In this document: piece by piece, positions 4,930 to 60,839 of the stretch
Layout of the letters: each line of letters starts with the position of its first letter
Position numbering within the stretch: position 1 is the first letter of the stretch
NCBI GenBank assembly: GCA_900770645.1
Contig: CAAGKY010000102.1
Span: 1,053 to 65,052, forward strand
Source of the DNA: Bacilli bacterium
GTDB taxonomy: Bacteria > Bacillota_I > Bacilli_A > ML615J-28 > CAG-313
Reading direction: 5' to 3'
DNA length: 64,000 bases
Program-made: the position numbers and the translations under genes
Notes under the pieces: generated by a model
What the model saw: only the letters and a program-made list of their open reading frames with translations
What the model was told of the DNA's origin: nothing
Databases searched by the model: none

Positions 4930-7455
4930 ATGATAGATTTTAAAGATTTTAAGATAAAGCGTGGTCCTGCTAAAGATCTTCATAGTCCGAGACTTATCGT
5001 AGAAGAAGGATATTGATATCTAAGTACTGATTCTGCTGAGTTATTTATTGGTATTGTAGTAGATGGTATACCACAATTAAAACCAATTAATGATACTTTA
5101 TTTGAGGCTAAACTAGCAAATTATGCTACAGTAGATTTTGTAAGAGAGGCTTTAGAGAGTATCGATATTCCAGAAATTAGTGTAGACGATTTTGCGACAA
5201 AAGAAGAATTAAATAATAAGGCTGATACTAGTTATGTAGATGAAAAAGTAGCTAATATTGTTAGTTCTGAAGGACTTGCAACAGAAGAATGAGTAAAAAA
5301 ACAAAACTACTTAACTGAGCATATAGATATTTCTGGAAAACAAGATATTATTGATGATCTAGAAGAGCTTAGAATTGGTGCAGCTTTAGGTAAAACTGCT
5401 CTTCAAGAAATTCCTACTGATTATGCTAAGAAGGACGACTTATTTAATAAAGATTACAATGAGTTAATTAATAAGCCTGAAGGATTAGCGACAGAGTCTT
5501 TTGTATTAGAAAAAATAGCTGAAGCTGAAATTGGTGAGAAAGAAATAGATCTATCAGTTTATGCTAAAAAAGAAGATCTATTCAGTAAAGACTATTATGA
5601 CTTAGAAAATAGACCAGATATTCCAGAAGCTTACGATGACAAAGAAGTTCGTAATTTAATTGCGAATAAAGCTGAAAGTTCATATGTAGACGAAAAAATT
5701 TTAGAGATTAATAGTAAAATCGATACCTTAGAGTCACATGAGCCATACGATGACTCTGAGTTACGTGAACTACTCAACGGAAAGTCCGACAAAGATCATA
5801 AGCATGACGAATACATTCAAGATTTATCTCATTTAGCTACAAAAGAAGAGTTATCTAACTATATAACTGAAGATATTTTAAATTCTAAAGGTTATATTAC
5901 AGACGTATCTGAAAAGCAAGATATAATTGAAGATTTAAGTGAAATCAGAGCAAATGCAGAATTAGGTAAAACTGCCTTACAAGCTATTCCTGAAGAGTTT
6001 ATTACAGAATCTGAATTAGAAGCTAAAGGATATTTAACAGATCATCAAAGTTTAGATAATTATTATAATAAAACAGAAGTTGACAATTTAATTAATAGTA
6101 TAGAATTGACTCCTGGTCAAAATGGTATTGATGGAAAAGACGGAGAAAAAGGTGAACAAGGTGAAGCTGGTAAATCGGCTTATCAAATCTGATTAGATCT
6201 AGGAAATACTGGAACTGAGCAAAATTTTATTGATTCACTTAAAGGCGAACAGGGAATCCAAGGTATCCAAGGTGAACCTGGAGTTCAAGGAGAAAAAGGT
6301 GAACGTGGAGAGCAAGGTCTTCAGGGGCCACAAGGTGAATCTGGTAAAGACGGATTAACTACAGCAGTTAAAGTTGGAACAACTACTTATACTCACGAAA
6401 ATGGCGTTATTAATCTTCCTAATTTTGTTGATAGTGATTATGTGACAGAGTATGTAGGCTCTGAACTTGACGATAGAGTTACCACAATAGGTAGTCAAAT
6501 AGCTGCTAATTATGCTACTAAGACATATGTTGATGATGCTATTAATAATGCATTAACTCCAGATAACCTTCCAGATGTGTTACCTGATGTATTACCTGAA
6601 GTTATTCCTACTGCTGTAACTTTAAAAGATTTACAAATTGGCGAAACCTTTACTACAGACGTGACAGTTGGTAAGTTAGAAGCTGGTACAGAGATTAAAT
6701 CAGAAATGACTTTTGGCGAATTATTAAAAGCTGTTTTCGGAGTTAGATGTAATCATGATTGACAAGAAGCAACATGTACTGAACCTAAGACTTGTAAACT
6801 TTGTGGAACTACCGAAGGAGTAGCATTAGGACACAATCCGTTACCAGCGGTAGAAGAAAATAGAGTTGAACCAACAACTACTTCAGTAGGAAGCTATGAA
6901 TCAGTAGTTTACTGTAATAGATGTGATGAAGAACTAAGTCGTGAAACTATTGAAATTCCAATGTTAGCACCTGAAGAACCAGAAATTCCAGAAGGATTAA
7001 TTGGTGATATTATAACAAATAAACGTGAAATGTATGTAGTTAACCACGACGGTTCATTGGAAGCAATTCCGTTTGAAATAAACATTTTATCTGAAGAGCA
7101 AGCAGCACAAGAACCTAATAGATCTGGTTTTTACCAAGTAGTTACAAATGAAGGTAATACTTTAGAAGCTGGCTATCATGATTTATCAGTATTAAATCCA
7201 GAATGAGTTTATATGGTAGTACTTCCTAAAGAAGTAAAAGCAGAAAATATTAGTGTACAAACTTTCTCAGATGAAGATCAAATTTGAGAAGATAGTACAT
7301 TCGAACTTACCAATGATGTAGATATTGTTGCTGACATTTGTGATATTTATGAAATGGATATAAGTGCTATAAATCCAGAAACACACACTGTATGAGTATC
7401 AGTGACTGAGCAACTTTGTACAGGAAGTAAAATAAGATATATAATAACAGACTAA
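4930..7455 (+). CDS. tail fibre protein with a collagen-like G-X-Y domain
   Basis: Single frame of about 841 codons interrupted only by TGA. Contains GQNGIDGKDGEKGEQGEAGKSAYQIW(tga)LDLGNTGTEQNFIDSLKGEQGIQGIQGEPGVQGEKGERGEQGLQGPQGESGKDG. N-terminal motif (KRGPAKDLHSPRLIVEEGYW) is shared with the other fibre genes here. Confidence 0.8.
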
Positions 7456-33769: not shown

Positions 33770-33810
33770 AAAATATTTTTTAAAAAATAATTAAAATTTT
33801 GAAAAAAATA

Positions 33811-33828
33811 TTGTATAATATTATGTAA
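33811..33828 (+). promoter_or_regulatory. extended -10 promoter TTGTATAATATTATGTAA
   Basis: Consensus copy, directly upstream of a structured RNA region. Confidence 0.5.
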
Positions 33829-33840
33829 ACAAAAAGAGAT

Positions 33841-34000
33841 GTAGCGGATGCATGAGTTACTTCGTATAATGGTTAATACACTTTTCTTTTAAAAAAGCTA
33901 AGCTGGTTCGACTCCAGCAGTAAAATGCTCGTGCAGTTATTCACATCTTTTCTAACTTAATATTATTATTGACCTAGCGGTAACAGCAGTTACTTCGGAA
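33841..34000 (+). ncRNA. candidate structured ncRNA with a tRNA-like T-arm, possible Y-RNA-like partner of the Ro60-like gene
   Basis: Promoter-driven. Contains GCTGGTTCGACTCCAGC (canonical T-stem/loop) but no acceptor or anticodon partner. Direct repeat AGTTACTTCG appears twice. No ORF. Confidence 0.3.
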
Positions 34001-34135
34001 TTAAAATTAAACTACAAATTTTTTGATGAATATTTTTTTGATAGAAACATAAACTGCTGTTAAATATTCAGGTCAATTAAATTTACTATATATCTCTTTT
34101 TGTTACAAATATAACAAAAGGAGATTTTTTATTTT

Positions 34136-35794
34136 ATGTCAAAAATGTTAGACTCAGTTAAAGAAATTCGTTCAGATGTTAAATCAAAACAAGTTACAAA
34201 TTTTATGGGCGGAAATTCTTATGAATTAAACGCTATTGATACTTTAAAGATGATTACAGCTTCATCTATTTTTGGAGAACCTTCATATTACCGTAATGGT
34301 GAATTTGATGATGCAAAAATTACTGATGCATATTATGATGTTAATTCTTTATTTAAAGAATTTAGTGTATTAGATGATTCTAAATTCTCTGGTAAAAAAA
34401 CTTCTGAAATTATGGAACAAGTTATTGATGAAGCATTAACAGAAGATTTTGGGGCTGTTTTAGATTGGGCAGTTGAGCTACGTAAAAACTATTTAATGAG
34501 ATTAAACCCTCAAGTTATTATGGTACGTGCAGCTATGCATCCAAATAGAGTTAAATTTAATGAAGAAAATCCAGGTAAATTTAAAGAAACAGAAAAATTA
34601 GTTATGTCTCGTGCTGATGAACCTGCTTCTCAATTAACTTATTATTTATATAAAAATAAGAATAAAAATAATTTACCAAATATTTTAAAACGTTCTTGGG
34701 CTGAAAAATTAGGTAGTTTAAATGCATATCAAGTTTCAAAATATAAAAATACAGGTTTAGGAATGATCGACGTAGTTCGTATTTCACATGCAAAATCTAA
34801 AGTTTTAGATGAACTTATGAGAACAGGAACTGTTGTTGTAGCTGAAGAAGATAAAACTTGGGAAAATCTTAAATCAGCTGGAAAAACATGGAAAGAAATT
34901 CTTGAAACTATTAAATTAGGCCATATGGCTCTTTTAAGAAATCTTCGTAATATTTTTACAGAAATTGATGATAGAGCTATTTGTATTAAAGTTCTTGAAG
35001 ATTTAAAAGCTGGTGTTTTATCTGGTAAACAATTTCCATTTAGATACTATTTAGCATATAAAGCAGTTGAAGAGTCAAGTATGAACTTTAAACCACTAGT
35101 TTTAGATGCATTAGAAGAATGTATTGATATTTCATTAGATAACATGCCAAAACTTTCTGGTAAAACTATGACATTATCTGATAACTCTGGTTCTGCTTGG
35201 GGAACAATTCCAACAGAATATGGATCAGTTAAAGTTGCAGAGATTGATAACTTATCTGCTGTTATTACAGCAATGCTTTCTGATGAAGGTTATGTTGGTG
35301 TATTTGGAGATAAATTAGAAATTATTCCAATTAAAAAACGTGATGGTGTTTTATCTCAGATGAAACTTGTTACTGAAAAAGGTAGTAGAGTAGGTAGAGG
35401 AACAGAAAATGGTATTTGGTTATTCTGGGACAAAGCTATTAGAGAAAAAGAACATTGGGATAATGTATTTATTTATTCAGATATGCAAGCAGGTCATGGT
35501 GGATTATACGGTATTGATGCACACTGGTATAACGAATATAGATGTCGTGGTAGTTATATTGATGTTATGAAGCTAGTTTCTAAATATCGTTCAACAGTAT
35601 CTGGCATAGTAAATGTATTCTCAGTTCAAACTGCTGGATATACAAATGTAGTAATTCCAGAATATGCATATAGATCTAATGTAATGTATGGCTGGACAGG
35701 TAAAGAAGTTGTATTCGCTGACACAATGATTAATTTTTGGAATGAAAAAGATTTAGAGAGATTAATCAAAATTAGAAAAAATAATCAAAATTAA
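34136..35794 (+). CDS. Ro60/TROVE-like protein with C-terminal vWA domain (Rsr-like)
   Basis: 552 aa. Large alpha N-terminal region followed by a vWA MIDAS motif LSDNSGSAWG (DxSxS) at about residue 345. Flanked on both sides by ORF-free structured RNA and a tRNA island. No TGA. Confidence 0.45.
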   Translation: MSKMLDSVKEIRSDVKSKQVTNFMGGNSYELNAIDTLKMITASSIFGEPSYYRNGEFDDAKITDAYYDVNSLFKEFSVLDDSKFSGKKTSEIMEQVIDEALTEDFGAVLDWAVELRKNYLMRLNPQVIMVRAAMHPNRVKFNEENPGKFKETEKLVMSRADEPASQLTYYLYKNKNKNNLPNILKRSWAEKLGSLNAYQVSKYKNTGLGMIDVVRISHAKSKVLDELMRTGTVVVAEEDKTWENLKSAGKTWKEILETIKLGHMALLRNLRNIFTEIDDRAICIKVLEDLKAGVLSGKQFPFRYYLAYKAVEESSMNFKPLVLDALEECIDISLDNMPKLSGKTMTLSDNSGSAWGTIPTEYGSVKVAEIDNLSAVITAMLSDEGYVGVFGDKLEIIPIKKRDGVLSQMKLVTEKGSRVGRGTENGIWLFWDKAIREKEHWDNVFIYSDMQAGHGGLYGIDAHWYNEYRCRGSYIDVMKLVSKYRSTVSGIVNVFSVQTAGYTNVVIPEYAYRSNVMYGWTGKEVVFADTMINFWNEKDLERLIKIRKNNQN

Positions 35795-35815
35795 TTAAAT
35801 TTTAGAAAAATTTAT

Positions 35816-35831
35816 TGTATAATATAATAAT
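35816..35831 (+). promoter_or_regulatory. extended -10 promoter (TTGTATAATATAAT)
   Basis: Consensus-family copy preceding the RNA island. Confidence 0.45.
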
Positions 35832-36083
35832 CGGTATGGTGCATTCGTTAAATATCATCCTAAATTAATGGGTGCACTTGGCATCAATAAGTCAACCTCC
35901 ACGTGGTGATGCTGGATAATAAAAGGAGTCATGACCTTTTAAACTAATGACTAATAGTGTATGTAAACAGACACGAAGTATACAGAGAAGTGTTCGTCAC
36001 CTTGGCTAGATTGCGCGGAGCAACTGTAAGACCGAGGTCAGGGTAAGCTCGGCCGTTAGACCCAATACACTATTTATTTATTT
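35832..36083 (+). ncRNA. candidate structured ncRNA between the Ro60-like gene and tRNA-Met, a second Y-RNA-like candidate
   Basis: ORF-free and GC-elevated. Local hairpins CGAGGTCAGGGTAAGCTCG and CCACGTGG. Promoter upstream. Confidence 0.25.
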
Positions 36084-36161
36084 GGCGGGGTAGAGCAGCT
36101 TGGTTAGCTCGGGGTCCTCATAAGTCCCAGGTCGTGTGTTCAAATCACACCCCCGCAACCA
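36084..36161 (+). tRNA. tRNA-Met(CAU), initiator-like
   Basis: GGCGGGGTAGAGCAGCTTGGTTAGCTC...CTCATAA...GTGTGTTCAAATCACACCCCCGCAACCA is near-identical to E. coli tRNA-fMet. Position 1/72 mismatch (G1-A72). Encoded CCA. Confidence 0.85.
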
Positions 36162-36164
36162 TTT

Positions 36165-36238
36165 GGGCACTCTTATTGGTATCCTTTAAGAATTAGCGCT
36201 ACTTAAATGTCGAGGTTCGATTCCTCGGGTGTCCACCA
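36165..36238 (+). tRNA. degenerate tRNA-like element (no canonical anticodon arm)
   Basis: Acceptor GGGCACT/GGTGTCC with two G-U pairs. Perfect T-arm CGAGG-TTCGATT-CCTCG. Encoded CCA. I could not fold a D-arm or anticodon stem. Confidence 0.35.
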
Positions 36239-36241
36239 TAT

Positions 36242-36317
36242 CTGAGCTGATAGCTTAACACGGTAAAGCGCCTGCCCTGACCAGGTGGGAGTTGTGGTTC
36301 GATTCCACTGGCTTAGA
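36242..36317 (+). tRNA. tRNA-like, putative Gln(CUG) with non-canonical features
   Basis: Acceptor CTGAGCT/GGCTTAG (two G-U pairs). T-loop TTCGATT. Anticodon stem GCCTG/CAGGT. Loop CCCTGAC has C at position 33. Confidence 0.4.
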
Positions 36318-36481
36318 CTGTAACTTTAAAATCCTAGTTATTTTTAAGGTCAGGAAGTAGAGTAGCCGTAATTCCTGTAGCTATATTGGTAGTGCTTTAT
36401 AACTAAAAGATAAAAGTATATTTTTAATGGGAGTCACTAACCATATTAAAAATCTATGAATAGTCAAACGGTGAATTCTTT

Positions 36482-36556
36482 GGTGCTATAGTATATCGGT
36501 TAATATCACTGGTTGTCGCCCAGTAGCGGGGGGTTCGACTCCCCCTAGCACCGCCA
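36482..36556 (+). tRNA. tRNA-Asp(GUC)
   Basis: Acceptor GGTGCTA/TAGCACC. D-stem GTAT/ATAT. Anticodon arm ACTGG-TTGTCGC-CCAGT. T-arm GGGGG-TTCGACT-CCCCC. Encoded GCCA. Confidence 0.8.
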
Positions 36557-43133: not shown

Positions 43134-44123
43134 ATGAATAAAAAAAGAATGGTAAGCGGGATCAAGCCTACGGGAAAAATTTCAATCGGAAATTATTTAG
43201 GCGCAATTAAACAATTTATTAACTATCAAGATGAATATGATTTATATGTATTTATTGCTGATTTACATGCTCTAACTTTACCAATTGATCCGGAAGAATT
43301 AAAACAAAATATTGAAGATTTAGTTGCTATTTATTTAGCTTGTGGATTAGACCCAGAAAAATGTAAAATTTTTAAACAATCTCAAATAATTGGTCATACT
43401 GATTTAAGTTGGATTTTAACATGTAATTCTAATGTAGGTGATTTTACTAAAATGCCTCAATATAAAAATTATATTGAAAAAAATAGTACTAATGGTGTTC
43501 CAGCTGGAATGTTAATGTATCCAGCATTAATGGCAGCAGATATTTTATTATATGATGCTGATTACGTTCCTGTTGGAATTGATCAAATGCCTCATGTTGA
43601 TTTATGTAGAGATATGGCAGAAAAGTTTAATAAACGCTTTCCAGATACTTTTAAATTGCCTTCTGGTGTTTTAAATAGAACAACTAGTAAAATCATGAGT
43701 TTATCAAATCCAACGCGAAAAATGAGTAAATCTGAGTCTGATAAAGGAACAATTTATTTATTAGATGACATTGAAGTTTCTAAGAAAAAAATTATGAAAG
43801 CTTTAACAGATTCTGAAAATAAATTTTATTATGATCCTTTCTTAAAACCAGGCCTATCTAACTTAATTAATATTTATTCAGCATTATCTGGACAAGCTGT
43901 TGAAGAAGTTGTTGAACAATACAGAGATTCTGAAAATTATGGCGTTTTTAAAAGAGCTTTATGTGAACTGTTAGAAAAAGAATTACTTCCAATTCAAGAA
44001 AGAGTGAAAGAAATTAAAGAAAGTAAATCTTATGTTCAAGTATTACAAGATGGTAATTGGGCAGCTCACGATCTAGCTTTTTCAAAGATGAGAGAAGTTT
44101 ATAAAAAATTAGGTTTAAAGTAA
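43134..44123 (+). CDS. trpS: tryptophanyl-tRNA synthetase
   Basis: Near full-length collinear similarity to bacterial TrpRS. SGIKPTGKISIGNYLGA (HIGH-region equivalent), ADLHALT, MYPALMAADILLY, KMSKS. 329 aa. No TGA; all Trp codons are TGG. Confidence 0.95.
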   Translation: MNKKRMVSGIKPTGKISIGNYLGAIKQFINYQDEYDLYVFIADLHALTLPIDPEELKQNIEDLVAIYLACGLDPEKCKIFKQSQIIGHTDLSWILTCNSNVGDFTKMPQYKNYIEKNSTNGVPAGMLMYPALMAADILLYDADYVPVGIDQMPHVDLCRDMAEKFNKRFPDTFKLPSGVLNRTTSKIMSLSNPTRKMSKSESDKGTIYLLDDIEVSKKKIMKALTDSENKFYYDPFLKPGLSNLINIYSALSGQAVEEVVEQYRDSENYGVFKRALCELLEKELLPIQERVKEIKESKSYVQVLQDGNWAAHDLAFSKMREVYKKLGLK

Positions 44124-44510: not shown

Positions 44511-44555
44511 AAATAAATATTGTATTATATTATATATAACACAGGAGGATTTATT

Positions 44556-45086
44556 ATGTTTAATATTAATTTCAATGCAAAAGATACAACTTGGACTCCA
44601 GCAATGGAAGAACATGCTAGAAAAGTAATTGAAAAAATCTTTACTCGCATTGCAATACCTACAGAAGCAAGTTTTTTTGTTAAAACATCGATTATCGATA
44701 AGAAAACAAAAATGATTAAAGTTGAATTAAGTGGTGCTGGATTTAGAGCTCAAAGTGTAAATAAAGATTTTTATGCAGCAATGACCGCTGTAACTAATAA
44801 ATTTAAATCTTTAATATTAAAACAAAATAAAAAATATGTAACAAAGAAAAAACATATTACTTTTGATGATGATAGTTTCTTAGAAAACGATTCTATCGAT
44901 GTTAATAATTTAATTACTAAAGAAAAAGTATTTATCATTGATGAGTGCTCTTTAGAAAAAGCTATAACAAAATTTGAGCAAACAGACTACTCATTCTATA
45001 TTTTTAAAGAGTTAGATTCAGATGATGAAATGGCTGTATTATATAGACGTGCTGATGATACTCTTGGTATTATTAGATGTCGCTAG
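44556..45086 (+). CDS. hpf: ribosome hibernation promoting factor (HPF/RaiA, long form)
   Basis: AGGAGG RBS. N-terminus MFNINFNAKDTTWTPAMEEHARKVIEKI and FYAAMTAVTNKFKSLILKQNKK are collinear with bacterial HPF/YfiA. Confidence 0.65.
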   Translation: MFNINFNAKDTTWTPAMEEHARKVIEKIFTRIAIPTEASFFVKTSIIDKKTKMIKVELSGAGFRAQSVNKDFYAAMTAVTNKFKSLILKQNKKYVTKKKHITFDDDSFLENDSIDVNNLITKEKVFIIDECSLEKAITKFEQTDYSFYIFKELDSDDEMAVLYRRADDTLGIIRCR

Positions 45087-47077: not shown

Positions 47078-49250
47078 TCGGATCGTACTCTAGAAATCTT
47101 CGGAACTAGGGTTAGCAATTATGCTTAAAATAATCGCGCCACAGGTTGTGACAGGGGTGGTTGTACGAAGAAGCAGGTGTACGTAAAATAACCAAGGATT
47201 ATTAAGATGAGTCAGTGCGGACCACCTGAGGGTTGAAGAAGGCATGGAATAACCATTGGTCTTAATAATGAATTACAAAAACCAGTAATACCACAATGGC
47301 CGTAAACCGTATACGACTCTGGTTGAAGTAGGAGGCACATCGCTGAAATGCGAAGTTAACAAGTAAAAACGGTTTGAGTCAGGGTGATATCTGACAAGTA
47401 CCAGGTGGTAATGGTCATATTGTATAGGTTTTTAATAAGTTTATACTATACAAAATTATGGAGTATTATAAGTTTTTATAGCACCCCTATAAAAAGAGGC
47501 CCTTATAGTACAGAATTATAAAATAACTTAATAGTCGTTGAAAGTGGTATCCATCGGCTGGGATTGAATAGAGTTATAAGATACCCTCTATTCCGGATAC
47601 GTTTAAGGGTAAGACGATAACGAGGCCTATTATTTGGCTAATAATAGGGAAAACCCTTTTGGATCATACTTTAGTTTCTTCGGAGCTAAGGTTTTAAAAA
47701 ATTATTGGGCTGGGCGAAAGCTCTTGGTCCACCAACGACGGGGAATTGCCTCGTCTGGTGTTCAGCGAAAGCTGATAAGTTTATTAAGGGCGAAAGGTGT
47801 TGCGACACCAAGTAGCGATATACACGAGGTTGCGGAGATGCATGTGCGACTCATACAACACCGGCAGGGGGCTAGTTTAAGAGTACAATACCGCTCAGTG
47901 TATAGCTAGGCAACGTAAGTTGTAACAGATAATTCGAGAGTGGTAGAATTTTTGGGTTATCTTAAACGTATTTCTGCGGCAGCAATTGAGCTGTTCTAAG
48001 GAATATAAGAGTATTCAATATGTGTCATGGAGAATACTGCATTTAGGTGTTAGGAACGGACTGTAAGTAAGAAGACAGTATCAGAGATTTAACGACTGAT
48101 TTAGACTTCTTCTCCCTGACTAATTAAATGGAGTGTGATGAACAGCCTAAAATTGTTAAACGGTTCGGGTATACATCGAGAGTATACATTGCTAATCTGT
48201 GGATTAGTTATCTTATTAGTTTCCTGTTCATTTGTGAATTGAGGTAAAGCAATAAGCAAAAGCTAATAATTTTGATCACTTACCGTTGGTGAGATGTGAC
48301 CTCCACTTGGTTGATAACTAGAGTGGCATTAAACTGCCGAATGACTATTCCTTGGGCCAAGGATACGGAAACCTCAGAAGCGGAAATCGCTAACCGTGAT
48401 TGTCATTGCACGTCGGAAACCCTTTTCCGTAAAATTGGGGACTTAATAGTAACTAGGTTAAAAAACTACTATTGATGTCGCGTATCGTCAGCCGATCTAG
48501 TAGGCTTGTGTTAGTACTAACAGGGACGCTCTCTGTAATCCTACAAGCGATAGTAGGTAATTTTATTATAGTGGCTTTTGTATTAGACATTAGTTATTTA
48601 TAATAAAATTTATAACAAGTGTGGTTTCTACTATAAGTGAGGCCAACTAGCAGTAAGTCTAATTTTATATTTAGGATGTCGACAGATATAGATTAGCAAC
48701 TAGTATATATTTCTATTATTATATAATTCCTGGCAGCGCTAGGTTTAGCAAAGTTGAACGTAAAAAGATGGGTGTCTCAGTTCTAAGAAGTAAGTTATAT
48801 AAAATAGAAATTTGTAGACTTCTCCATCAGGCCTCTGCCTTTTGGTATGCACACTTGATGGCGATCTGCCAAATAGATCCATACACGCCGCCATTGTTGT
48901 TTTTGGGTTAATGTACTATTGAGCATGCAGGTCTTTGGACTTCAGTAGAGTTAACTCTGTGGTAATAAGTCTGTTTGTCAGACTCGGCGTACCATGTATG
49001 GCCATTTAATGCTCTTCAGGCAGTCTGTAAGAGTAGTATAGTAGTAAATTTTCTTCCCGCACCTCGGCAAGACAGCGAGACAGTTTGTGCATGTGCCCCA
49101 GGGAAGCAGAGCTTGATATCTCTATCGTCTCAAAAGTTATCCGTAACATTGAGCGCAGGTAAGCTAATTTAGTCTTGACCTGGACCGTGATAAAAACTTC
49201 CTTTACGTGAATGAGGACCTGACTGAGGATATGTTAGAAGTCAGAGCGCT
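47078..49250 (+). ncRNA. about 2.1-kb ORF-free, GC-elevated segment between tRNA genes: candidate giant structured ncRNA(s) or intron
   Basis: No ORF over 91 aa in any frame even allowing TGA. The two track ORFs (47634..47909, 48975..49172) lack an RBS and end at TAG. GC clearly above the genome background. Multiple GNRA-type hairpins (ACGGAAACCT, AGCGGAAATCGCT, CGGAAACCC). Internal promoter-like TATATAAT at about 48700 followed by TCCTGGCAGCGCTAGG. Confidence 0.45.
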
Positions 49251-56854: not shown

Positions 56855-58939
56855 TTATTTACTATTTACTGTACATACACAATTTTTAAGAGGTTTTACT
56901 CCAACGACACCACCAGCTCCACGGCCTTTATCTACTAAGTCTTTTATTTTTATTTCTTTATCTTTTTTTCCGTTATTTAGAATTATAGTATCTTCATCTG
57001 TAGCTAACTTGCATTCAATAATTTCATCGTCTTCTAAAACTTTCATAACTGGTGCACCAACAACTTTACTTAGTTTAACTACTAAATCAGTTTTAATCTT
57101 TTTAATTAGTCCATTTTTAGTAACAAAAATTAAGAAAGGTATCTGTTCATCTTCAGTATATATTCCAACAATTTTTTCATTAAATAATTCATATAAATTC
57201 ATTCCAGTAGAATTAATATTGCACAAATCGATTTTATTTACACTTAATTTGTACATAGTTCCAGTATTTGAAATTAATACAAATCTATCTTTTAAACTTA
57301 GTTCAACTGTATGAGTAATAGTATCTTCTTCAGTTAGTAGTTTTTGTTTCTTATTTGCATCATTCAAAGTCATACGTTTAATTGTATTTCCTTTAGTTAA
57401 AGCGATAACAAAGTTTTCTACTTTTTTCTCTTCATGTTTTTTAAGCATTGTTTTTTCTACATCTAAATCTATATCGATCACTTCAGTTCGTCTTGTCCAA
57501 CCATATTTATCTACAAAATTAGATAATCTATTTAGAAATTCTTTCTTTTGAAGATTTTTTGAGGCTAAAAATTTATTACATTTATTAATTACTTTATTTA
57601 GTTCAACTTGTTCTTTATTTAATTCAGTAATCTCTAAATTAGCTAATTTTCCTAATCTCATATCAACGATAGCTTTTGCTTGATTTGCAGTAAATGAATA
57701 TAAGTTGATTAGATTTGTTCTTGCTTCGTCAGAACTCTTAGAAGCTTTAATTGTCTTAATAATCTCATCAATAATAGAAATAGCTCTAATTAGTCCATCA
57801 ACTATCTCTAATCTTTTCTCAGCTTTATCTAGTTCGAATCTATATTCTTTAATTAAACAGTTAATATTATGTTCTACATAAACTTTAATATATTCTTTTA
57901 AGTTTAGTAAAGTTGGAATTCCATCTACTAATGCCATTTGATTAGCATTAAAAGTTGATTGTAATTCTGTTAATTTATATAACTTAGTTAATACAATATT
58001 TGGATCATCTGAACACTCAATTTCAATATTTAAACCATTATCGTCTGATTTGTTACAAATATCTTCAATACCAGTTAAAGTATTTGCGTTAACTAAATCT
58101 TTAATTTTTTGAATAAATGGTTCAGCATAAGTTTGATAAGGTAATTCGGTAATATTAATATTTTTCTTATTAATTTTCGTTTTACCACGTAATACTACAG
58201 CACCTTTTCCAGTTTCATAAATCTTTTTAATTTCAGATTTATTAATAATAATACCACCAGTTGGAAAATCTGGATAAATATTATCATATGTAATATTATT
58301 TGTGTCGACATATTCTTTAACTTTTTCGAAGAGTTCATTTAAATTTCCAGGTTCCCATTCTTGAGCTATTGTATAACCAATACCTTGTGAACCATTTACA
58401 AATAATCTTGGAAAAATCGCTGGAAATATTTTTGGCCAATACTCGTCTTCTGAAAAGTTTAAAATCATTTCAGAAGTATTTTTCTTAATATTTTCAAAGA
58501 AGCCATCTTCAACTGATTTAGCTAATCTACATTCTGTGTATCTTGAACTTGCAGCGTCTGGCCCACCTAATAGAGAACCATTGGCTCCATGAAAATCTAT
58601 TTCACAAATGTTATTTACCCACGGTTGAGACATACGAACAAGAGCTTCATATACTGAACCATCACCGTGTGGATGCCAAGTAGCAATAGTTCCACCAGTT
58701 ACTTTTGCTGATTTAACATGTGGTTTATTAGAAGAATAGTTTTTAACAAACATTTCCCATAATGTAGCTCGTTGAACTGGTTTTAGTCCATCTGCTGCAC
58801 TTGGAAAAGCACGATTGTTATTAACTTCTGTAGCATAAACTAAAAAGTCATTACTTAACTCTTCTTCAATACTAATTTCATTATTGTTTTGATTATCGTT
58901 TAAAATATCGTCAAATAATCCGTTTACTTTATCTTTCAT
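56855..58939 (-). CDS. DNA topoisomerase II medium subunit (GyrA-like; T4 gp52-like)
   Basis: ADGLKPVQRATLW and catalytic-Tyr region SSRYTECRLA. 694 aa. No TGA. Confidence 0.85.
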   Translation of the reverse strand: MKDKVNGLFDDILNDNQNNNEISIEEELSNDFLVYATEVNNNRAFPSAADGLKPVQRATLWEMFVKNYSSNKPHVKSAKVTGGTIATWHPHGDGSVYEALVRMSQPWVNNICEIDFHGANGSLLGGPDAASSRYTECRLAKSVEDGFFENIKKNTSEMILNFSEDEYWPKIFPAIFPRLFVNGSQGIGYTIAQEWEPGNLNELFEKVKEYVDTNNITYDNIYPDFPTGGIIINKSEIKKIYETGKGAVVLRGKTKINKKNINITELPYQTYAEPFIQKIKDLVNANTLTGIEDICNKSDDNGLNIEIECSDDPNIVLTKLYKLTELQSTFNANQMALVDGIPTLLNLKEYIKVYVEHNINCLIKEYRFELDKAEKRLEIVDGLIRAISIIDEIIKTIKASKSSDEARTNLINLYSFTANQAKAIVDMRLGKLANLEITELNKEQVELNKVINKCNKFLASKNLQKKEFLNRLSNFVDKYGWTRRTEVIDIDLDVEKTMLKKHEEKKVENFVIALTKGNTIKRMTLNDANKKQKLLTEEDTITHTVELSLKDRFVLISNTGTMYKLSVNKIDLCNINSTGMNLYELFNEKIVGIYTEDEQIPFLIFVTKNGLIKKIKTDLVVKLSKVVGAPVMKVLEDDEIIECKLATDEDTIILNNGKKDKEIKIKDLVDKGRGAGGVVGVKPLKNCVCTVNSK

Positions 58940-58952
58940 GCTTTTCCTCCAA

Positions 58953-60839
58953 TTAATTTATTAATGTTGAATCATAGTTATCTAATAAAAAAGTTCTTCT
59001 ACTCTCAACATTATTTCCAAAGAAACACTCTAATAGTTCGTCAGCTTTATTTTCATCAATAACTTTAATCGTCTTAACGTTTCTAGTTGCTGGGTCTAAT
59101 AAACAATATTTTAATTCTGTAGGATCTTGTTCACCTAACCCTTTGTTTCTTGAGATTAAATAGTCATTTTTTGGATGTTGTTTTTTGTATTTTTCTAATT
59201 CTGCTTTATCTTTTAAATAAATATATTTATTATCTTTAGTTGTAATTCTGAATAGTGGTGGAATAGCAACTGCAATATGTCCGTTGCTTAATAATTCTGG
59301 ACATAACCACCAAAACATATTAATTAATAATGATCGAATATTTGCACCATCTTCATCTCCATCGGCTGCAAGTATAATTTGATTATATCTTAATTTTTTA
59401 ATATCGTAAATTAGTTTACCAGTTTCTTTATTAATTTCTAAACCAATAGCTTTTACAATATTAGAGATTTCTTGATTTGCATAAACTTTATCTGTTGTTG
59501 CTTTTCTACAAGATAAAACTTTACCACGAATTGGGAAAATTGCTTGTGTTTTACCATCTCTTTTTGCAACTAAACCGTTTGCAGCAGAATCACCTTCTGT
59601 AATAAATAGTGAACATTCTAATCTATTTTTTGAATACGCATCAATCAACTTAGTTGGAAGATTAATGAACTTCTTTCCTTTTGTTGTTGCATTTCTAATT
59701 TTTTCTTTTGCTTTTTGAGAAGCTTCTCGAACTTTTCTAGCAACTAATGCTTTATCAATAATAATTTTTGCATCTTTTTGATTATTATTTAACCAAGATG
59801 CAAAGTCATTATTTAAAACATTATTAATTAAAACTTTATTTAAATCAACAACTTTTGTTTTTGTTTGTGAGTCGTATTTAACATTTGTTGTTTTAATGTT
59901 AAATACTAGGAATAATCCTTCAGAAATTTCTGCTTGAGTTAAAGCAGCATCATTTTTCTTTAATAAATTATTGTCTACAGCAAATTTGTTTAACTGTCTA
60001 GTTAATGCAGCTTTAACGGTTCCAATATGTACACCAGACTCAGTTAAACCATAATTTACATAAGCTGTAATATTTTCAGAATAATCTGAAGTATAAGTAA
60101 TAGCTACATCAAATAAATCATTATTAAATTCTTTTCTTAAACTAAATCTATTAGAAAGAATTTCTTTATCTCCAATTTTTTTATTCAATAAATCTTGAAT
60201 TCCATTTTTAGATTGGAATACATAAGTATTTGTTTTTTCTTTTTTAATTACTGTTAAGTTAATTGTTAGTTGTGGACATAGAGCTGAAATATCTTCAAAT
60301 AATTTCTTAATGTCTGTTTCATTAACTTCTACATTTTGAAAAAATTGCTCATCTGGTGACCAAGTTACAGTTGTTCCAGACTTATTATCTATATCTTTAT
60401 TAACTTCTCTTTTTACAAATACTCCATCTTCAAACCATATTTTTTCATATTTTTTACCGTTTGAAGAATAAACAATTAAGTAATGCGATAAATAGTTAGT
60501 TAGTTTTGAACCTATACCATTTAACCCAAGAGACGCTCCAGAATAAACTCCATCATCATCATATTTTCCAGATGTATTAAATCTATCAAAGGCTGCTTGA
60601 AGAATTGTTTCTCCGTCTTTTTCTATATTAATAGGAAAACCTTGACCATTGTCTTCGACAATATATTCGTTTTTGTCATAATTTAAAACAATATTAATAG
60701 CATCTCCATGACCGATAATGTGCTCATCTAAAGAATTACTAAAAATTTCTCTTACTAACTGCGTTGAGTATTCATTACTGCCTAAATACGTAGCTGGGCA
60801 GTTATCGCAAACGGGTAAATTCTCTTGGGTTAAGAGAAA
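58953..60839 (-). CDS. DNA topoisomerase II large subunit (GyrB-like; T4 gp39/gp60-like): GHKL ATPase, transducer and TOPRIM domains; start anomalous
   Basis: Hand translation of 60189-60839 continues the track ORF upstream. N-box EIFSNSLDE. G1 box IVEDNGQGFP. G2 TSGKYDDDGVYSGASLGLNGIGSKL. TOPRIM ITEGDSA. In-frame TAA at 60840-60842; only ATG is 60849-60851 (M-R-V-stop). Confidence 0.8.
   Translation of the reverse strand, partial: FLLTQENLPVCDNCPATYLGSNEYSTQLVREIFSNSLDEHIIGHGDAINIVLNYDKNEYIVEDNGQGFPINIEKDGETILQAAFDRFNTSGKYDDDGVYSGASLGLNGIGSKLTNYLSHYLIVYSSNGKKYEKIWFEDGVFVKREVNKDIDNKSGTTVTWSPDEQFFQNVEVNETDIKKLFEDISALCPQLTINLTVIKKEKTNTYVFQSKNGIQDLLNKKIGDKEILSNRFSLRKEFNNDLFDVAITYTSDYSENITAYVNYGLTESGVHIGTVKAALTRQLNKFAVDNNLLKKNDAALTQAEISEGLFLVFNIKTTNVKYDSQTKTKVVDLNKVLINNVLNNDFASWLNNNQKDAKIIIDKALVARKVREASQKAKEKIRNATTKGKKFINLPTKLIDAYSKNRLECSLFITEGDSAANGLVAKRDGKTQAIFPIRGKVLSCRKATTDKVYANQEISNIVKAIGLEINKETGKLIYDIKKLRYNQIILAADGDEDGANIRSLLINMFWWLCPELLSNGHIAVAIPPLFRITTKDNKYIYLKDKAELEKYKKQHPKNDYLISRNKGLGEQDPTELKYCLLDPATRNVKTIKVIDENKADELLECFFGNNVESRRTFLLDNYDSTLIN

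What the first reader, a model, noticed from the sequence alone, without database searches (positions are those of the whole stretch)
33811..36083. Ro60/TROVE-vWA-like gene flanked by two promoter-driven ORF-free structured RNAs, one with a tRNA T-arm mimic: possible phage Rsr-Y RNA module
Bacterial and phage Ro60 orthologues (Rsr) are characteristically encoded next to Y-RNA genes. Those Y RNAs often contain a tRNA-like module and frequently sit beside tRNA clusters. Here a 552-aa protein with a C-terminal vWA MIDAS (DNSGS) follows a promoter-driven RNA at 33841-34000. That RNA contains a canonical T-stem-loop (GCTGGTTCGACTCCAGC) but no tRNA body. A second ORF-free structured segment at 35832-36083 leads into the tRNA island.
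Basis: partly seen in the sequence, partly recalled or inferred. Interest (0 to 1): 0.8.

Follow-up and report, generated by a model that had tools for sequence, protein, structure and literature searches.

The report
Phage Ro60 gene with Y RNAs
A large tRNA-rich phage carries a Ro60 (Rsr) RNA-binding ring protein gene preceded by two small Y RNA genes, one shaped like a lysine tRNA. This is an unusual variant of a known module, and the stretch after the gene is not a Y RNA but an HDV-like self-cleaving ribozyme at the head of a tRNA cluster.

Summary
The core idea holds. ORF 34136-35794 is a Ro60/Rsr homologue: it has a Pfam TROVE hit, an invariant DNSGS MIDAS motif, and a model whose 12 best PDB matches are all Ro60.

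Two Y-type RNAs lie upstream on the same strand, behind a recurrent phage promoter: Y1 (33834-33951) and Y2 (33968-34077). Both share a basal module: stem A, an internal loop (5' AGCGG / 3' NUUAUUC), stem B, then GUUACUUC. A covariance model built from other loci finds exactly these two sites in the window. It gives 214 hits around related TROVE genes, 211 of them on the gene strand, and almost none in control DNA.

Three details are wrong. Y1 has a full tRNA-Lys(UUU)-like cloverleaf, called by both ARAGORN and Rfam, in normal D-anticodon-T order. It is therefore not a canonical YrlA. There is no bulged-C helix. The downstream segment 35832-36083 is not a Y RNA. It holds a leader hairpin, an HDV-like (theta-like) ribozyme at 35880-35952, and an unexplained conserved element (D3) leading into tRNA-Met.

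Phage Ro60/Y RNA modules are already published. This is a new variant of a known kind. RNA expression, Ro60 binding and ribozyme cleavage are all inferred, not shown.

The parts
33791..33819 (+). Promoter of the Y1-Y2 unit: TTAAAA, 17 nt, TATAAT, with an extended -10 (TGTATAAT). The predicted start is about 33826.
   Evidence: Consensus scan. A perfect copy of the recurrent motif AAAWWTATTGTATAATAT lies at 33804-33821; the motif occurs 11 times in the window against 0.58 expected. Function is inferred.
33834..33951 (+). Y1 RNA. Layout: stem A (AAGAGAUGU/ACAUCUUUU), internal loop 5' AGCGG (33843-33847) / 3' GUUAUUC (33936-33942), stem B (AUGCAUGAG/CUCGUGCA), a 4-nt bulge, then a tRNA-Lys(UUU)-like cloverleaf.
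   Evidence: MFE fold z -2.7. CM R1 hit at 33836-33949, 38.8 bits, E 2.8e-7. In the orthologue alignment A2, 15 of 31 pairs show compensatory changes.
33857..33923 (+). tRNA-like domain of Y1. It has a D arm (GUAU/AUAC, loop AAUGGUUA), an anticodon arm with loop CUUUUAA, and a T arm (GCUGG-UUCGACU-CCAGC). The acceptor is only 5 bp (UUACU/AGUAA); its 5' strand is supplied by the family motif GUUACUUC. No CCA is encoded.
   Evidence: ARAGORN tRNA-Lys(ttt) at 33854-33928. Rfam tRNA 45.7 bits over model positions 3-68 of 71. Comparison with full-acceptor versions in relatives.
33968..34077 (+). Y2 RNA (YrlB-like). It has the same basal module: UUGACCU-AGCGG-UAACAGCAGUU ... AACUGCUGUUA-AAUAUUC-AGGUCAA. 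The apical region is AU-rich and poorly conserved.
   Evidence: CM R1 hit at 33969-34076, 63.2 bits, E 1.9e-13. Fold z -2.9. The basal stems covary among 7 orthologues while the apex varies.
34092..34135 (+). A 14-bp hairpin followed by a U-run, resembling an intrinsic terminator. Its 3' arm contains the rsr Shine-Dalgarno sequence (AAGGAG). It probably ends the Y1-Y2 transcripts and limits rsr expression.
   Evidence: Terminator scan. Fold -14.6 kcal/mol, z -5.9. It is present only in close relatives: window, L004, L005. Its role is inferred.
34136..35794 (+). Ro60/Rsr homologue, 552 aa: a TROVE HEAT-repeat ring plus a vWA domain with MIDAS DNSGS (residues 349-353).
   Evidence: Pfam TROVE E 5.6e-9. 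PHROG 850 'RNA-binding protein' E 5.5e-45. PDB sequence hit to 9KOP/9L5Y, the Thermus phage Ro60. AF2 model pLDDT 81, pTM 0.81. The top 12 Foldseek PDB hits are all Ro60. 57% identical to Bacillus phage G gp540.
35795..35823 (+). Second copy of the same promoter type (TTAAAT, 17 nt, TATAAT, with TG). It drives the downstream tRNA-island transcript.
   Evidence: perfect motif copy at 35808-35825. Function is inferred.
35838..35878 (+). D1: a 14-bp leader hairpin that ends exactly at the predicted ribozyme cleavage site.
   Evidence: Fold z -4.0, with none of 200 shuffles as stable. Identical in L004, where it sits before a different ribozyme copy. Two compensatory pair changes in L286.
35880..35952 (+). 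HDV-like (theta-like) self-cleaving ribozyme. Elements: P1 GGCAUC/GAUGCU (G35880-U35913 wobble), P2 AGUCA/UGACU, P3 ACC/GGU, L3 UCCACGU, P1.1 GG, P4 AAAAGG/CCUUUU, J4/2 CUAA with the putative catalytic C35944. Predicted cleavage is between 35879 and 35880.
   Evidence: Weak Rfam drz-agam-1 hit, 20.4 bits. The descriptor gives 1 hit in the window against 0.01 expected. In the seven descriptor instances P1, P2 and P3 covary and C[U/G]AA is invariant. An eighth copy, in L293, has P3 as a G-U wobble and L3 UCCUCGU, the HDV consensus. Activity was not tested.
35955..36072 (+). D3: a conserved structured element of unknown function. It always lies directly 3' of this ribozyme and is followed by tRNA-Met (36084-36161).
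   Evidence: Fold z -2.1. 90% identical in L286. Recognisable homologues lie 3' of the ribozyme in L287 and L293, with a covarying closing stem. No Rfam hit. No match in public collections.

Best explanation
The locus is a phage-encoded Ro60/Rsr-Y RNA module.

The protein is a Ro60 homologue, a TROVE ring plus a vWA/MIDAS domain. Two cognate non-coding Y RNAs are transcribed from a phage consensus promoter just upstream on the same strand. They probably end at a hairpin that also buries the rsr ribosome-binding site.

Both RNAs pair their 5' and 3' ends into a two-part stem. The stem is interrupted by a conserved internal loop (5' AGCGG / 3' NUUAUUC) and followed by GUUACUUC. This shared base is most likely the Ro60 docking platform (inferred).

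The apical parts differ and would act as effector modules. Y1 displays a tRNA-Lys(UUU)-like L-shape with intact D, anticodon and T arms but no usable acceptor end. Y2 is an irregular AU-rich hairpin, YrlB-like.

Three published systems suggest a function: Deinococcus and Salmonella Rsr/Y RNA/PNPase, and Thermus phage phiLo Ro60-Yrl1/2, which binds host PNPase and slows it. By analogy, the RNP would tether Ro60 to host RNA-handling enzymes (PNPase or tRNA-binding proteins). That would reshape RNA decay and quality control during infection of a host by a phage that brings its own tRNAs, an aminoacyl-tRNA synthetase and a hibernation factor (inferred).

The downstream ORF-free segment belongs to a separate transcription unit: promoter, leader hairpin, HDV-like ribozyme that cuts off the leader, D3, then the tRNAs.
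For: Protein:
- TROVE hit above the Pfam cut-off.
- MIDAS motif invariant in 19 homologues.
- The best PDB sequence match is 9KOP/9L5Y, the phiLo Ro60.
- AF2 model pLDDT 81; its top 12 Foldseek hits are all Ro60 (phage, Deinococcus, Xenopus, human) at E 1e-14 to 2e-9, and the next hit is at 4e-3.

RNA:
- The module is defined by sequence and covariation. In alignment A6 all 16 pairs show compensatory changes, 0 of 500 shuffles reach the observed values, and the slide control gives 0.79 against at most 0.30.
- CM R1 finds only Y1 and Y2 in the window with filters off.
- R1 gives 142 hits in 78 of 83 viral TROVE loci, all on the gene strand.
- It gives 72 hits in 35 of 80 genome loci plus 6 of 6 close relatives, 69 of them on the gene strand.
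- Control: 874 kb of unrelated viral DNA that carries the 5' motif by chance. It gave hits at E < 1e-3 in only two loci, a seed member and a piece of a TROVE contig.
- In the Y1 orthologue alignment, 15 of 31 pairs are compensatory.
- In relatives the same base carries YrlA-type permuted tRNA domains, which Rfam YrlA detects at E 2e-4 to 6e-7.

Published precedent:
- YrlA plus YrlB lie upstream of rsr on the same strand, and phages including Bacillus phage G encode Ro60 (PMC4201824; PMC12135203).

Context:
- 12 tRNAs, a class-I aminoacyl-tRNA synthetase and HPF.
Against: - There is no expression, binding or function data.
- The window RNAs get no Rfam YrlA or Y_RNA hit.
- They lack the published GNCGAAN0-1G / CGAA motif. 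They read UGUAGCGG and CCUAGCGG, whereas many relatives read YGAAGCGG.
- Which conserved block contacts Ro60 is unknown. Rfam aligns its GNCGAA stem to our stem B/GUUACUU, not to the AGCGG loop.
- The loci were collected through the TROVE gene, so linkage rests on strand bias, proximity and the control set, not on a whole-database scan.
- PNPase involvement is pure analogy.
Confidence: 0.8

Rival explanations
1. Y1 is simply a decoding or decaying tRNA-Lys(UUU) gene of the phage tRNA set. The flanking complementarity and Y2 are just the leader, trailer and 5' UTR of the rsr mRNA.
For: ARAGORN and Rfam both call a tRNA. Relatives have versions with a perfect 7-bp acceptor stem (L288 2731-2804, L007 4201-4273). 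These might be excised by RNase P and 3' processing. The window shows no other tRNA-Lys among its 12 tRNAs.
Against: - The acceptor stem is only 5 bp, with 1:72 and 2:71 unpaired.
- There is a 4-nt bulge and no discriminator or CCA. The neighbouring tRNA-Met (36084-36161) encodes CCA and matches Rfam positions 1-71.
- L287 has lost the 3' acceptor strand altogether yet keeps the D, anticodon and T arms and the Y stems.
- L288 has a canonical tRNA-Lys(UUU) with CCA as well as the embedded copy.
- The flanking stems and loop are a family-wide conserved module that also occurs without any tRNA.
Confidence: 0.06
2. The upstream modules are not free-standing RNAs. They are cis-acting Ro60-binding sites in the rsr leader, and they autoregulate transcription termination or translation of rsr.
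For: Y1 and Y2 lie between the promoter and rsr. The terminator-like hairpin buries the SD. Its 5' arm is also complementary to the Y1 leader and stem A over 16 nt, which allows alternative pairing.
Against: - In relatives the same modules lie downstream of rsr, in arrays of up to six, or behind their own promoters.
- The SD hairpin is confined to the closest relatives.
- Published YrlA and YrlB are processed from precursors that also sit upstream of rsr, yet they act in trans (PMC4201824).
- The two roles are not mutually exclusive.
Confidence: 0.1
3. The long stems are RNase III-type processing signals that excise tRNA-like cargos from phage tRNA-island transcripts. Their neighbourhood to the TROVE gene is incidental.
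For: The modules often sit in or beside tRNA arrays, for example L259 between two tRNAs with no TROVE gene in the fetched 5.8 kb. The stems are long duplexes.
Against: - In the window the module is absent from the tRNA islands at 36-38 kb and 46-50 kb and occurs only in front of rsr.
- 211 of 214 hits share the strand of the TROVE gene, and most lie within about 1 kb of it.
- The invariant single-stranded blocks (AGCGG, UAUUC, GUUACUUC) are not what an RNase III site needs.
- Many members carry no tRNA-like cargo.
Confidence: 0.04

Closest known systems
YrlA / YrlB Y RNAs with Rsr (Salmonella Typhimurium, Mycobacterium smegmatis; Chen et al. 2014, PMC4201824; Rfam RF02553)
   Same: Two Y RNAs are encoded next to rsr on the same strand. 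One has a tRNA-like module with canonical T and D loops, and the other is a plain hairpin. The 5' and 3' ends pair, and a conserved motif lies on the 5' strand. Relatives of this phage carry copies that Rfam YrlA detects at 30-37 bits.
   Different: Window Y1 has the tRNA arms in normal order (D, anticodon, T) with an anticodon arm, and the Y stem stands in for the acceptor end. YrlA is permuted (T, acceptor hairpin, D) with the Y stem in the anticodon position. The window has no Rfam YrlA hit. The motif is AGCGG inside an internal loop plus GUUACUUC, not GNCGAAN0-1G.
Deinococcus radiodurans Yrn1 (Y RNA of the Rsr/PNPase RYPER complex)
   Same: According to PMC4201824, Yrn1 has its T arm and D-like loop in the same orientation relative to the 5' end as a tRNA. 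It has an 'anticodon arm', and the Ro-binding stem is formed by the termini. This is the same topology as Y1.
   Different: The Yrn1 tRNA likeness is partial: a 6-nt 'anticodon' loop and a doubtful D arm. Its Ro site resembles the metazoan bulged helix. Y1 is a near-perfect cloverleaf with a 7-nt CUUUUAA loop and a different internal-loop motif. No sequence relation was tested.
Thermus phage phiLo Ro60 with Yrl1/Yrl2 (PDB 9KOP, 9L5Y; PMC12135203)
   Same: It is the closest solved protein: sequence E 1.6e-10 and Foldseek E 1e-14, TM 0.6-0.7. It is phage-encoded with two Y-like RNAs directly upstream of the gene. The RNAs form a stem-bulge-stem with the conserved motif in the bulge.
   Different: Only about 21% identity. 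The phiLo RNAs were defined by a CGAA motif, and no tRNA-like domain is reported (the term does not occur in the paper). PNPase binding and attenuation were shown there and not here.
Bacillus phage G gp540 locus (NC_023719)
   Same: 57% identical protein, annotated as a TROVE RNA-binding protein, with a tRNA island downstream. Five copies of the same Y module lie upstream: CM hits at L003 780, 2257, 2457, 2564 and 2688. One of them is YrlA-like. Its Ro60 is cited as known in PMC12135203.
   Different: The record annotates none of these RNAs. No standard-order embedded tRNA was seen there.
Theta ribozymes (minimal HDV-like ribozymes next to phage tRNAs; Kienbeck et al. 2024, PMC10879173)
   Same: It has the nested double-pseudoknot core with the catalytic C at the start of J4/2. 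It occurs in Caudoviricetes of gut/rumen Bacillota and inside tRNA clusters. The copies in relatives L005 and L020 abut a tRNA 3' end.
   Different: The window copy has a P4 hairpin. Its cleavage site follows a non-tRNA hairpin (D1) rather than a tRNA, and it is always fused to the unknown element D3. The Rfam HDV-family score is below threshold.

Membership tests
Ro60 / Rsr protein (TROVE + vWA) | TROVE domain at or above the Pfam gathering score | tested here: met
   PF05731, 36.1 bits against a cut-off of 23, E 5.6e-9. Only residues 229-315 align, so the protein is divergent.
Ro60 / Rsr protein (TROVE + vWA) | Full-length fold of a HEAT-repeat ring closed by a vWA domain, as in solved Ro60 structures | tested here: met
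   AF2 model pLDDT 81, pTM 0.81. The top 12 Foldseek PDB hits are all Ro60 (9KOP, 9L5Y, 2NVO, 2I91, 1YVP, 1YVR, 9NEN and others), with 487-607 aligned columns and probability 1.00.
Ro60 / Rsr protein (TROVE + vWA) | MIDAS motif DxSxS in the vWA domain | tested here: met
   D349-N-S351-G-S353, invariant in 19 homologues.
Ro60 / Rsr protein (TROVE + vWA) | Binds Y RNA on the outer surface and misfolded RNA in the central hole | not testable with these tools
   Needs EMSA, RIP or structure determination.
YrlA (Rfam RF02553) | Encoded within about 4 kb of the Ro60 gene on the same strand | tested here: met
   Y1 lies 185 nt and Y2 59 nt upstream of the start codon, both on the + strand.
YrlA (Rfam RF02553) | Covariance-model score at or above the gathering score of 69 bits | tested here: not met
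   No YrlA hit in 33770-36500 even at E <= 10. Relatives' permuted copies reach only 30-37 bits.
YrlA (Rfam RF02553) | GNCGAAN0-1G motif near the 5' end | tested here: not met
   The window has UGUAGCGGA (Y1) and CCUAGCGGU (Y2). Many relatives have YGAAGCGG, which contains CGAAG. Homology of the two motifs is unresolved.
YrlA (Rfam RF02553) | tRNA-like domain in permuted order (V/T arm, closed acceptor-like hairpin, D arm), with the Y stem in the anticodon-stem position | tested here: not met
   Y1 runs D arm, anticodon arm, T arm, with the Y stem at the acceptor position. Permuted copies exist in L003, L005, L086, L087, L288 and L290.
YrlA (Rfam RF02553) | T loop UUCRANY and D loop with GG capable of the tRNA elbow interaction | tested here: met
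   T loop UUCGACU; D loop AAUGGUUA (alignment).
Y RNA in the broad sense (Ro60-associated ncRNA) | 5' and 3' termini pair into a long stem interrupted by a conserved loop or bulge, plus a variable second module | tested here: met
   Stems A and B show compensatory changes at all 16 pairs. The internal-loop blocks AGCGG and ..AUUC are conserved, with AGCGG invariant in the seed alignment. There are at least five apical classes.
Y RNA in the broad sense (Ro60-associated ncRNA) | Physically bound to, and stabilised by, Ro60 | not testable with these tools
   Only genomic linkage is shown: 211 of 214 hits on the gene strand and a near-empty control.
Canonical decoding tRNA-Lys | Rfam/ARAGORN tRNA call with a 7-nt anticodon loop, U33 and R37 | tested here: met
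   45.7 bits; loop CUUUUAA.
Canonical decoding tRNA-Lys | 7-bp acceptor stem with a free 3' discriminator and a CCA end (encoded or addable) | tested here: not met
   Only 5 bp (UUACU/AGUAA). Model positions 1-2 and 69-71 are unmatched. A 4-nt bulge then leads into stem B, and no CCA is encoded.
HDV-like / theta ribozyme | Nested double pseudoknot: P1, P2, P3 (3 bp, 7-nt L3), P1.1, optional P4 | tested here: met
   The descriptor gives a single hit at 35880 on both strands of 64 kb, against 0.01 expected. Among the seven descriptor instances there are four P1, five P2 and two P3 sequence variants, and all remain paired apart from one P1 mismatch in L287. An eighth copy, in L293, keeps P3 as a G-U wobble.
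HDV-like / theta ribozyme | Catalytic cytosine at the first position of J4/2, and a G-U wobble closing P1 at the cleavage site | tested here: met
   C35944 in CUAA, invariant as C[U/G]AA. G35880 pairs with U35913. The copies in L005 and L020 start with A-U or U-A instead.
HDV-like / theta ribozyme | Score at or above the gathering score of an Rfam HDV-family model | tested here: not met
   drz-agam-1, 20.4 bits against 37, E 0.68. The model cannot score the P1 pseudoknot.
HDV-like / theta ribozyme | Theta definition: cleavage site within +/-5 nt of a tRNA end | tested here: not met
   In the window the site follows hairpin D1, not a tRNA. The feature is met for related copies in L005 (4404) and L020 (1562).
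HDV-like / theta ribozyme | Self-cleavage yielding 2',3'-cyclic phosphate and 5'-OH ends | not testable with these tools
   Needs an in vitro transcription and cleavage assay with a C35944U control.

The most novel reading that the evidence does not exclude
The Y-embedded cloverleaves may be purpose-built tRNA decoys held by phage Ro60. Their anticodon loop CUUUUAA (tRNA-Lys UUU) is invariant across phages whose Ro60 proteins are only 60-90% identical, while every stem covaries. It persists even where the phage also has a canonical tRNA-Lys(UUU). Other members display Gly(UCC), Thr(GGU), Ser(GCU) or UUA loops.

On this reading the Ro60-Y RNP would present an uncleavable or sacrificial anticodon stem-loop. 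The target would be a host tRNA-directed defence nuclease of the kind known to attack tRNA-Lys, or a tRNA-specific modification or charging enzyme. The RNP would thereby protect translation during infection. This would give the long-unexplained tRNA-like domain of bacterial Y RNAs a concrete function.
Probability: 0.12. Interest if true: 0.85.

Novelty: new variant of a known kind. Interest (0 to 1): 0.52.

Why it matters
Ro60-Y RNA particles are conserved from bacteria to humans and are a lupus autoantigen, yet the role of the tRNA-like domain in bacterial Y RNAs is still open.

This phage clade offers a large natural series: 214 copies round about 120 TROVE genes. One conserved protein-docking base carries interchangeable heads. 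These include permuted tRNA mimics, whole standard-order cloverleaves with defined anticodon loops, plain hairpins, and a 200-nt domain with an anti-Shine-Dalgarno-like hairpin.

That modularity makes 'what does the head recruit?' directly testable. It also supplies sequences that Rfam YrlA misses.

The adjacent HDV-like ribozyme, fused to an unknown conserved element, extends the contexts in which theta-type ribozymes are found beyond tRNA 3' ends.

Tried and rejected
1. An exact-pattern scan of viral contigs with AGCGGN8GTTACTTCG (14 specified bases) returned 120 loci. Almost all were chance matches without the fold or a TROVE gene. I kept them as a negative control.
2. Rfam Y_RNA/YrlA in the window gave nothing at E <= 10.
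3. A sequence-profile search of the PDB reached only the phage Ro60, not Deinococcus or vertebrate Ro60. The fold search was needed.
4. NCBIfam gave no family.
5. D3 identity stayed unresolved. Rfam found nothing. A 20-mer scan and a ribozyme-plus-D3 gapped pattern found nothing in viral contigs. The single metagenome hit, L292, is a GC-rich chance match. With few homologues there is only anecdotal covariation.
6. I tested whether the SD-burying hairpin is a family-wide regulator. It is not; it is confined to the closest relatives.
7. I looked for a second HDV-like ribozyme or a third Y module elsewhere in the window. There is none.
8. The supplement of Chen et al. 2014, which would show whether this clade was already listed, is not held. 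The 2020 Annual Review is not held either.

Full report
**What is at the coordinates.** ORF 34136-35794(+) encodes 552 aa. Both flanks are ORF-free. ARAGORN finds 12 tRNAs in the window. Rfam at gathering thresholds reports the same tRNA at 33857-33923 (45.7 bits), but only over model positions 3-68 of 71. D arm, anticodon arm (loop CUUUUAA) and T arm are all there, and only the top of the acceptor stem is missing.

**The protein is a Ro60 homologue.**
- Pfam gives TROVE above its cut-off (36.1 against 23 bits).
- PHROGs gives 'RNA-binding protein' (E 5.5e-45).
- The only solved relatives found by sequence are 9KOP and 9L5Y. The literature identifies these as the Ro60 of Thermus phage phiLo. 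That protein binds two Y-like RNAs encoded just upstream of its gene, binds host PNPase, and slows it (PMC12135203).
- An AlphaFold2 model built on 19 homologues (pLDDT 81, pTM 0.81) has as its 12 best PDB matches only Ro60 structures: phage, Deinococcus Rsr, Xenopus and human. Their E-values run from 1e-14 to 2e-9 over nearly the full length, and the next hit is at 4e-3.
- The MIDAS motif DNSGS (349-353) is invariant.
- The family is large, with more than 3,700 hits. It includes Bacillus phage G gp540 at 57% identity, already cited as a phage Ro60.

**Two RNAs upstream, with a shared base.** The sequence shows two successive hairpin-closed elements.
- Y1 (33834-33951): AAGAGAUGU - AGCGG - AUGCAUGAG - UUACUUCG...[cloverleaf]...AGUAA-AAUG - CUCGUGCA - GUUAUUC - ACAUCUUUU.
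- Y2 (33968-34077): UUGACCU - AGCGG - UAACAGCAGUU - ACUUCGG...[AU-rich]...AACUGCUGUUA - AAUAUUC - AGGUCAA.

The stems differ in sequence, but three blocks recur: the 5' loop AGCGG, the 3' loop ..UAUUC, and GUUACUUC after stem B. Close relatives fetched through the protein show the same architecture with different stem sequences (L004 at 90% aa identity, L005 at 80%, then L286-L297, and for the sequences).

**Family-wide evidence for the module.**
- I collected 165 loci round homologous TROVE genes.
- A 5'-motif defined by sequence alone (AGCGG-N7-10-YUAYUY) occurs 78 times on the gene strand.
- 55 of those 78 have at least 13 of 14 base pairs in the two 7-bp stems.
- An unbiased read-out of the 3' loop gives ..AUUC or ..UUUC.
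- As a control, 120 chance matches of the same 5' motif elsewhere in viral contigs reach that pairing in only 10 cases. At least three of those are real members.
- An alignment of 16 short members from other loci shows compensatory changes at all 16 pairs. The covariation score is 0.79, against 0.22 in shuffles (0 of 500 reach it) and at most 0.30 when the partners are slid.
- The covariance model R1 built from that alignment, run on the whole window with filters off, finds exactly two sites. Y2 scores 63.2 bits (E 1.9e-13) and Y1 scores 38.8 bits (E 2.8e-7); the next hit is 13 bits. Orthologues of Y2 from L287 and L288 were in the seed, which helps its score. Y1 is recognised through the base alone.
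- R1 gives 142 hits in 78 of 83 viral TROVE loci, all on the gene strand.
- R1 gives 72 hits (69 on the gene strand) in 35 of 80 genome loci and in all six extra close relatives.
- In the control set (874 kb), hits at E < 1e-3 fall in only two loci: a seed member, and a fragment of a TROVE-carrying contig with two hits.
- The orthologue alignment of Y1 supports stems A and B and all three tRNA arms, with 15 of 31 pairs compensatory. For Y2 only the base is conserved.

**Relation to known Y RNAs.** Chen et al. (PMC4201824) defined YrlA by four features:
- proximity to rsr on the same strand;
- a GNCGAAN0-1G motif;
- a permuted tRNA-like domain (T arm, closed acceptor-like hairpin, D arm);
- usually a second, hairpin-like YrlB.

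They note that Deinococcus Yrn1 has the opposite orientation, with an 'anticodon arm'.

In relatives of this phage the same base carries exactly such permuted domains (L003_787 in Bacillus phage G, L005_4185, L086, L087, L288, L290). Rfam YrlA detects these below threshold (30-37 bits, E down to 6e-7 in a local search). This ties the module to the Y RNA world.

The window's own Y1 is a different variant. It is a whole tRNA in normal order sitting on the Y stem, which is Yrn1-like topology, and it has no YrlA hit.

Two sub-forms of this variant exist. In one, a complete 7-bp-acceptor tRNA follows GUUACUUC (L288 2731-2804, L290, L007 4201-4273, L008 4245-4317). In the other, UUACU of the family motif itself replaces the 5' acceptor strand (window, L004, L286, L287, L005, L288 4778). 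L287 has even lost the 3' acceptor strand while keeping everything else.

Seven of 13 distinct embedded cloverleaves have the invariant loop CUUUUAA. The rest are UCC, GGU, GCU and UUA. L288 also carries a canonical tRNA-Lys(UUU) with CCA. A decoding role for Y1 is therefore unlikely.

Other apical classes are plain 65-100-nt hairpins, T-arm-plus-hairpin forms, and a ~200-225-nt class with a conserved domain.

**Transcription signals.** Both upstream and downstream units start behind perfect copies of AAAWWTATTGTATAATAT, an extended -10 promoter motif. It is present 11 times in the window against 0.58 expected.

Between Y2 and the start codon lies a 14-bp hairpin plus U-run (34092-34135, z -5.9). 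It contains the rsr Shine-Dalgarno sequence. It probably terminates the Y transcripts and limits rsr expression. It is restricted to the closest relatives, so it is a local feature. All of this is inferred.

**The downstream segment is something else.** R1 finds no module in 35795-36083. The segment has three parts.
1. *Leader hairpin D1 (35838-35878).* It folds at z -4.0. It is identical in L004 and shows two compensatory changes in L286.
2. *HDV-like ribozyme (35880-35952).* Rfam gives only a weak drz-agam-1 hit (20.4 bits). Every hallmark is nevertheless present: P1 with a G-U wobble at the cleavage site, P2, a 3-bp P3 with L3 UCCACGU, GG for P1.1, P4, and CUAA with the catalytic C before the P2 3' strand. 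A descriptor for this fold hits once in the window on both strands, against 0.01 expected in Markov simulations. Seven descriptor instances across the window and related loci (L004 x2, L005, L020, L286, L287), plus an eighth in L293, show covarying P1, P2, P3 and P4 and invariant C[U/G]AA. In L005 and L020 the ribozyme abuts a tRNA 3' end, which is the published theta-ribozyme context (PMC10879173). In the window it follows D1 instead. L004 has two ribozymes 240 nt apart, and the window looks like a deletion between them.
3. *D3 (35955-36072).* It always follows this ribozyme (window, L286, L287, L293, and L004 where the contig is cut). It has a covarying closing stem and conserved blocks, but no known family and no further homologues. 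Its function remains unexplained.

**Mechanism, with status of each step.**
- *Shown by computation:* Ro60 fold and motifs. A conserved, covarying, gene-linked RNA module. A tRNA-like L-shape in Y1. An HDV-like fold downstream.
- *Inferred from established knowledge:* the RNAs bind the encoded Ro60 through the conserved base, and the apical domains recruit partners. This draws on Ro60-Y RNA systems: the Xenopus structure, Deinococcus and Salmonella RYPER, and phiLo Ro60.
- *Speculative:* the partner is PNPase or a tRNA-binding enzyme, and the tRNA-Lys-like loop acts as a decoy.
- *Context:* the surroundings are a translation island, with 12 tRNAs, a class-I W/Y aminoacyl-tRNA synthetase and HPF. 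Phage structural genes lie nearby. This fits an RNA or tRNA-centred role.

**Verdict.** This is a new variant of a known kind, a phage Ro60-Y RNA module, with an unrelated but interesting HDV-like ribozyme unit next door. Interest is moderate.

Noticed in passing
window 36165-36239 (+): An unannotated tRNA-like element lies between tRNA-Met and tRNA-Val. It has a 7-bp acceptor stem, a canonical T arm and an encoded CCA. It has no D arm, and a 6-bp/11-nt-loop hairpin stands in place of the anticodon arm. ARAGORN and Rfam both miss it. It is 97% conserved in L286 5462-5539.
   Followed up: partly
window 36242-36318 (+): The tRNA-Val(GAC) called by ARAGORN has a 9-nt anticodon loop. Its Rfam score is only 26.8 bits, below the threshold of 29. 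A homologue is called in L286 at 5540-5616.
   Followed up: no
window 47706-47752 (+): Rfam DUF3800-XI RNA scores 53.6 bits against a gathering score of 37.8. It lies inside the second tRNA island.
   Followed up: no
window 21570, 29994, 32307, 33804, 35808, 38104, 40075, 44513, 45474, 63822 (+) and 62145 (-): A recurrent extended -10 promoter-like motif, AAAWWTATTGTATAATAT, has 11 copies against 0.58 expected. Checked copies sit in gaps between ORFs. It is probably this phage's own promoter class.
   Followed up: partly
window 34092-34135 and 33828-33843: The hairpin that buries the rsr Shine-Dalgarno sequence has a 5' arm that is also complementary, over 16 nt, to the Y1 leader and stem A 5' strand. 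An alternative pairing, and hence a feedback switch, is conceivable. The hairpin is conserved only in the closest relatives.
   Followed up: partly
window 35955-36072; L286 5255-5383; L287 2433-2535; L293 2380-2490: Element D3 is fused 3' of the HDV-like ribozyme. It contains a hexamer that stays palindromic while changing: GTATAC in the window, GCATGC in L286, L287 and L293. The blocks CGAAG..GAAG and UCGGCCGUUAGACC are conserved. No known family matches.
   Followed up: partly
L004 4227-4466: The 90%-identical relative has two HDV-like ribozymes. They are separated by 240 nt that contain two T-arm-like hairpins. The window lacks this stretch and joins hairpin D1 directly to the second ribozyme.
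   Followed up: partly
L041 1951-2168, L042, L046, L058, L059, L061, L077-L079 (about 200-225 nt each): A long class of the same Y module carries a conserved apical domain..GGUUUAAUUCAC..GACUAGAAAU..GGGAAYGAUUACCUCCCAUAAGGAGGGACCAC. It includes an anti-Shine-Dalgarno-like GAUUACCUCC paired to GGAGG. There was no Rfam hit for L041.
   Followed up: no
L288 and L290 (2227-2942, 4760-5049, 6146-6974): Phages with 80%-identical Ro60 carry six Y modules round one rsr gene. They mix permuted YrlA-like, full-tRNA, truncated-tRNA and hairpin heads.
   Followed up: partly
window 43134-44123 and 44520-45086 (+): A class-I Trp/Tyr-type aminoacyl-tRNA synthetase and a ribosome hibernation factor (S30AE/HPF) are encoded between the tRNA islands. 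Gyrase/topoisomerase IV-like subunits lie at 56855-60188 on the minus strand.
   Followed up: no
L259 647-733: A high-scoring Y module (75 bits; it is a seed member) sits between two tRNA genes in a viral contig piece with no TROVE gene in the fetched 5.8 kb. Whether a TROVE gene lies further away is unknown.
   Followed up: no
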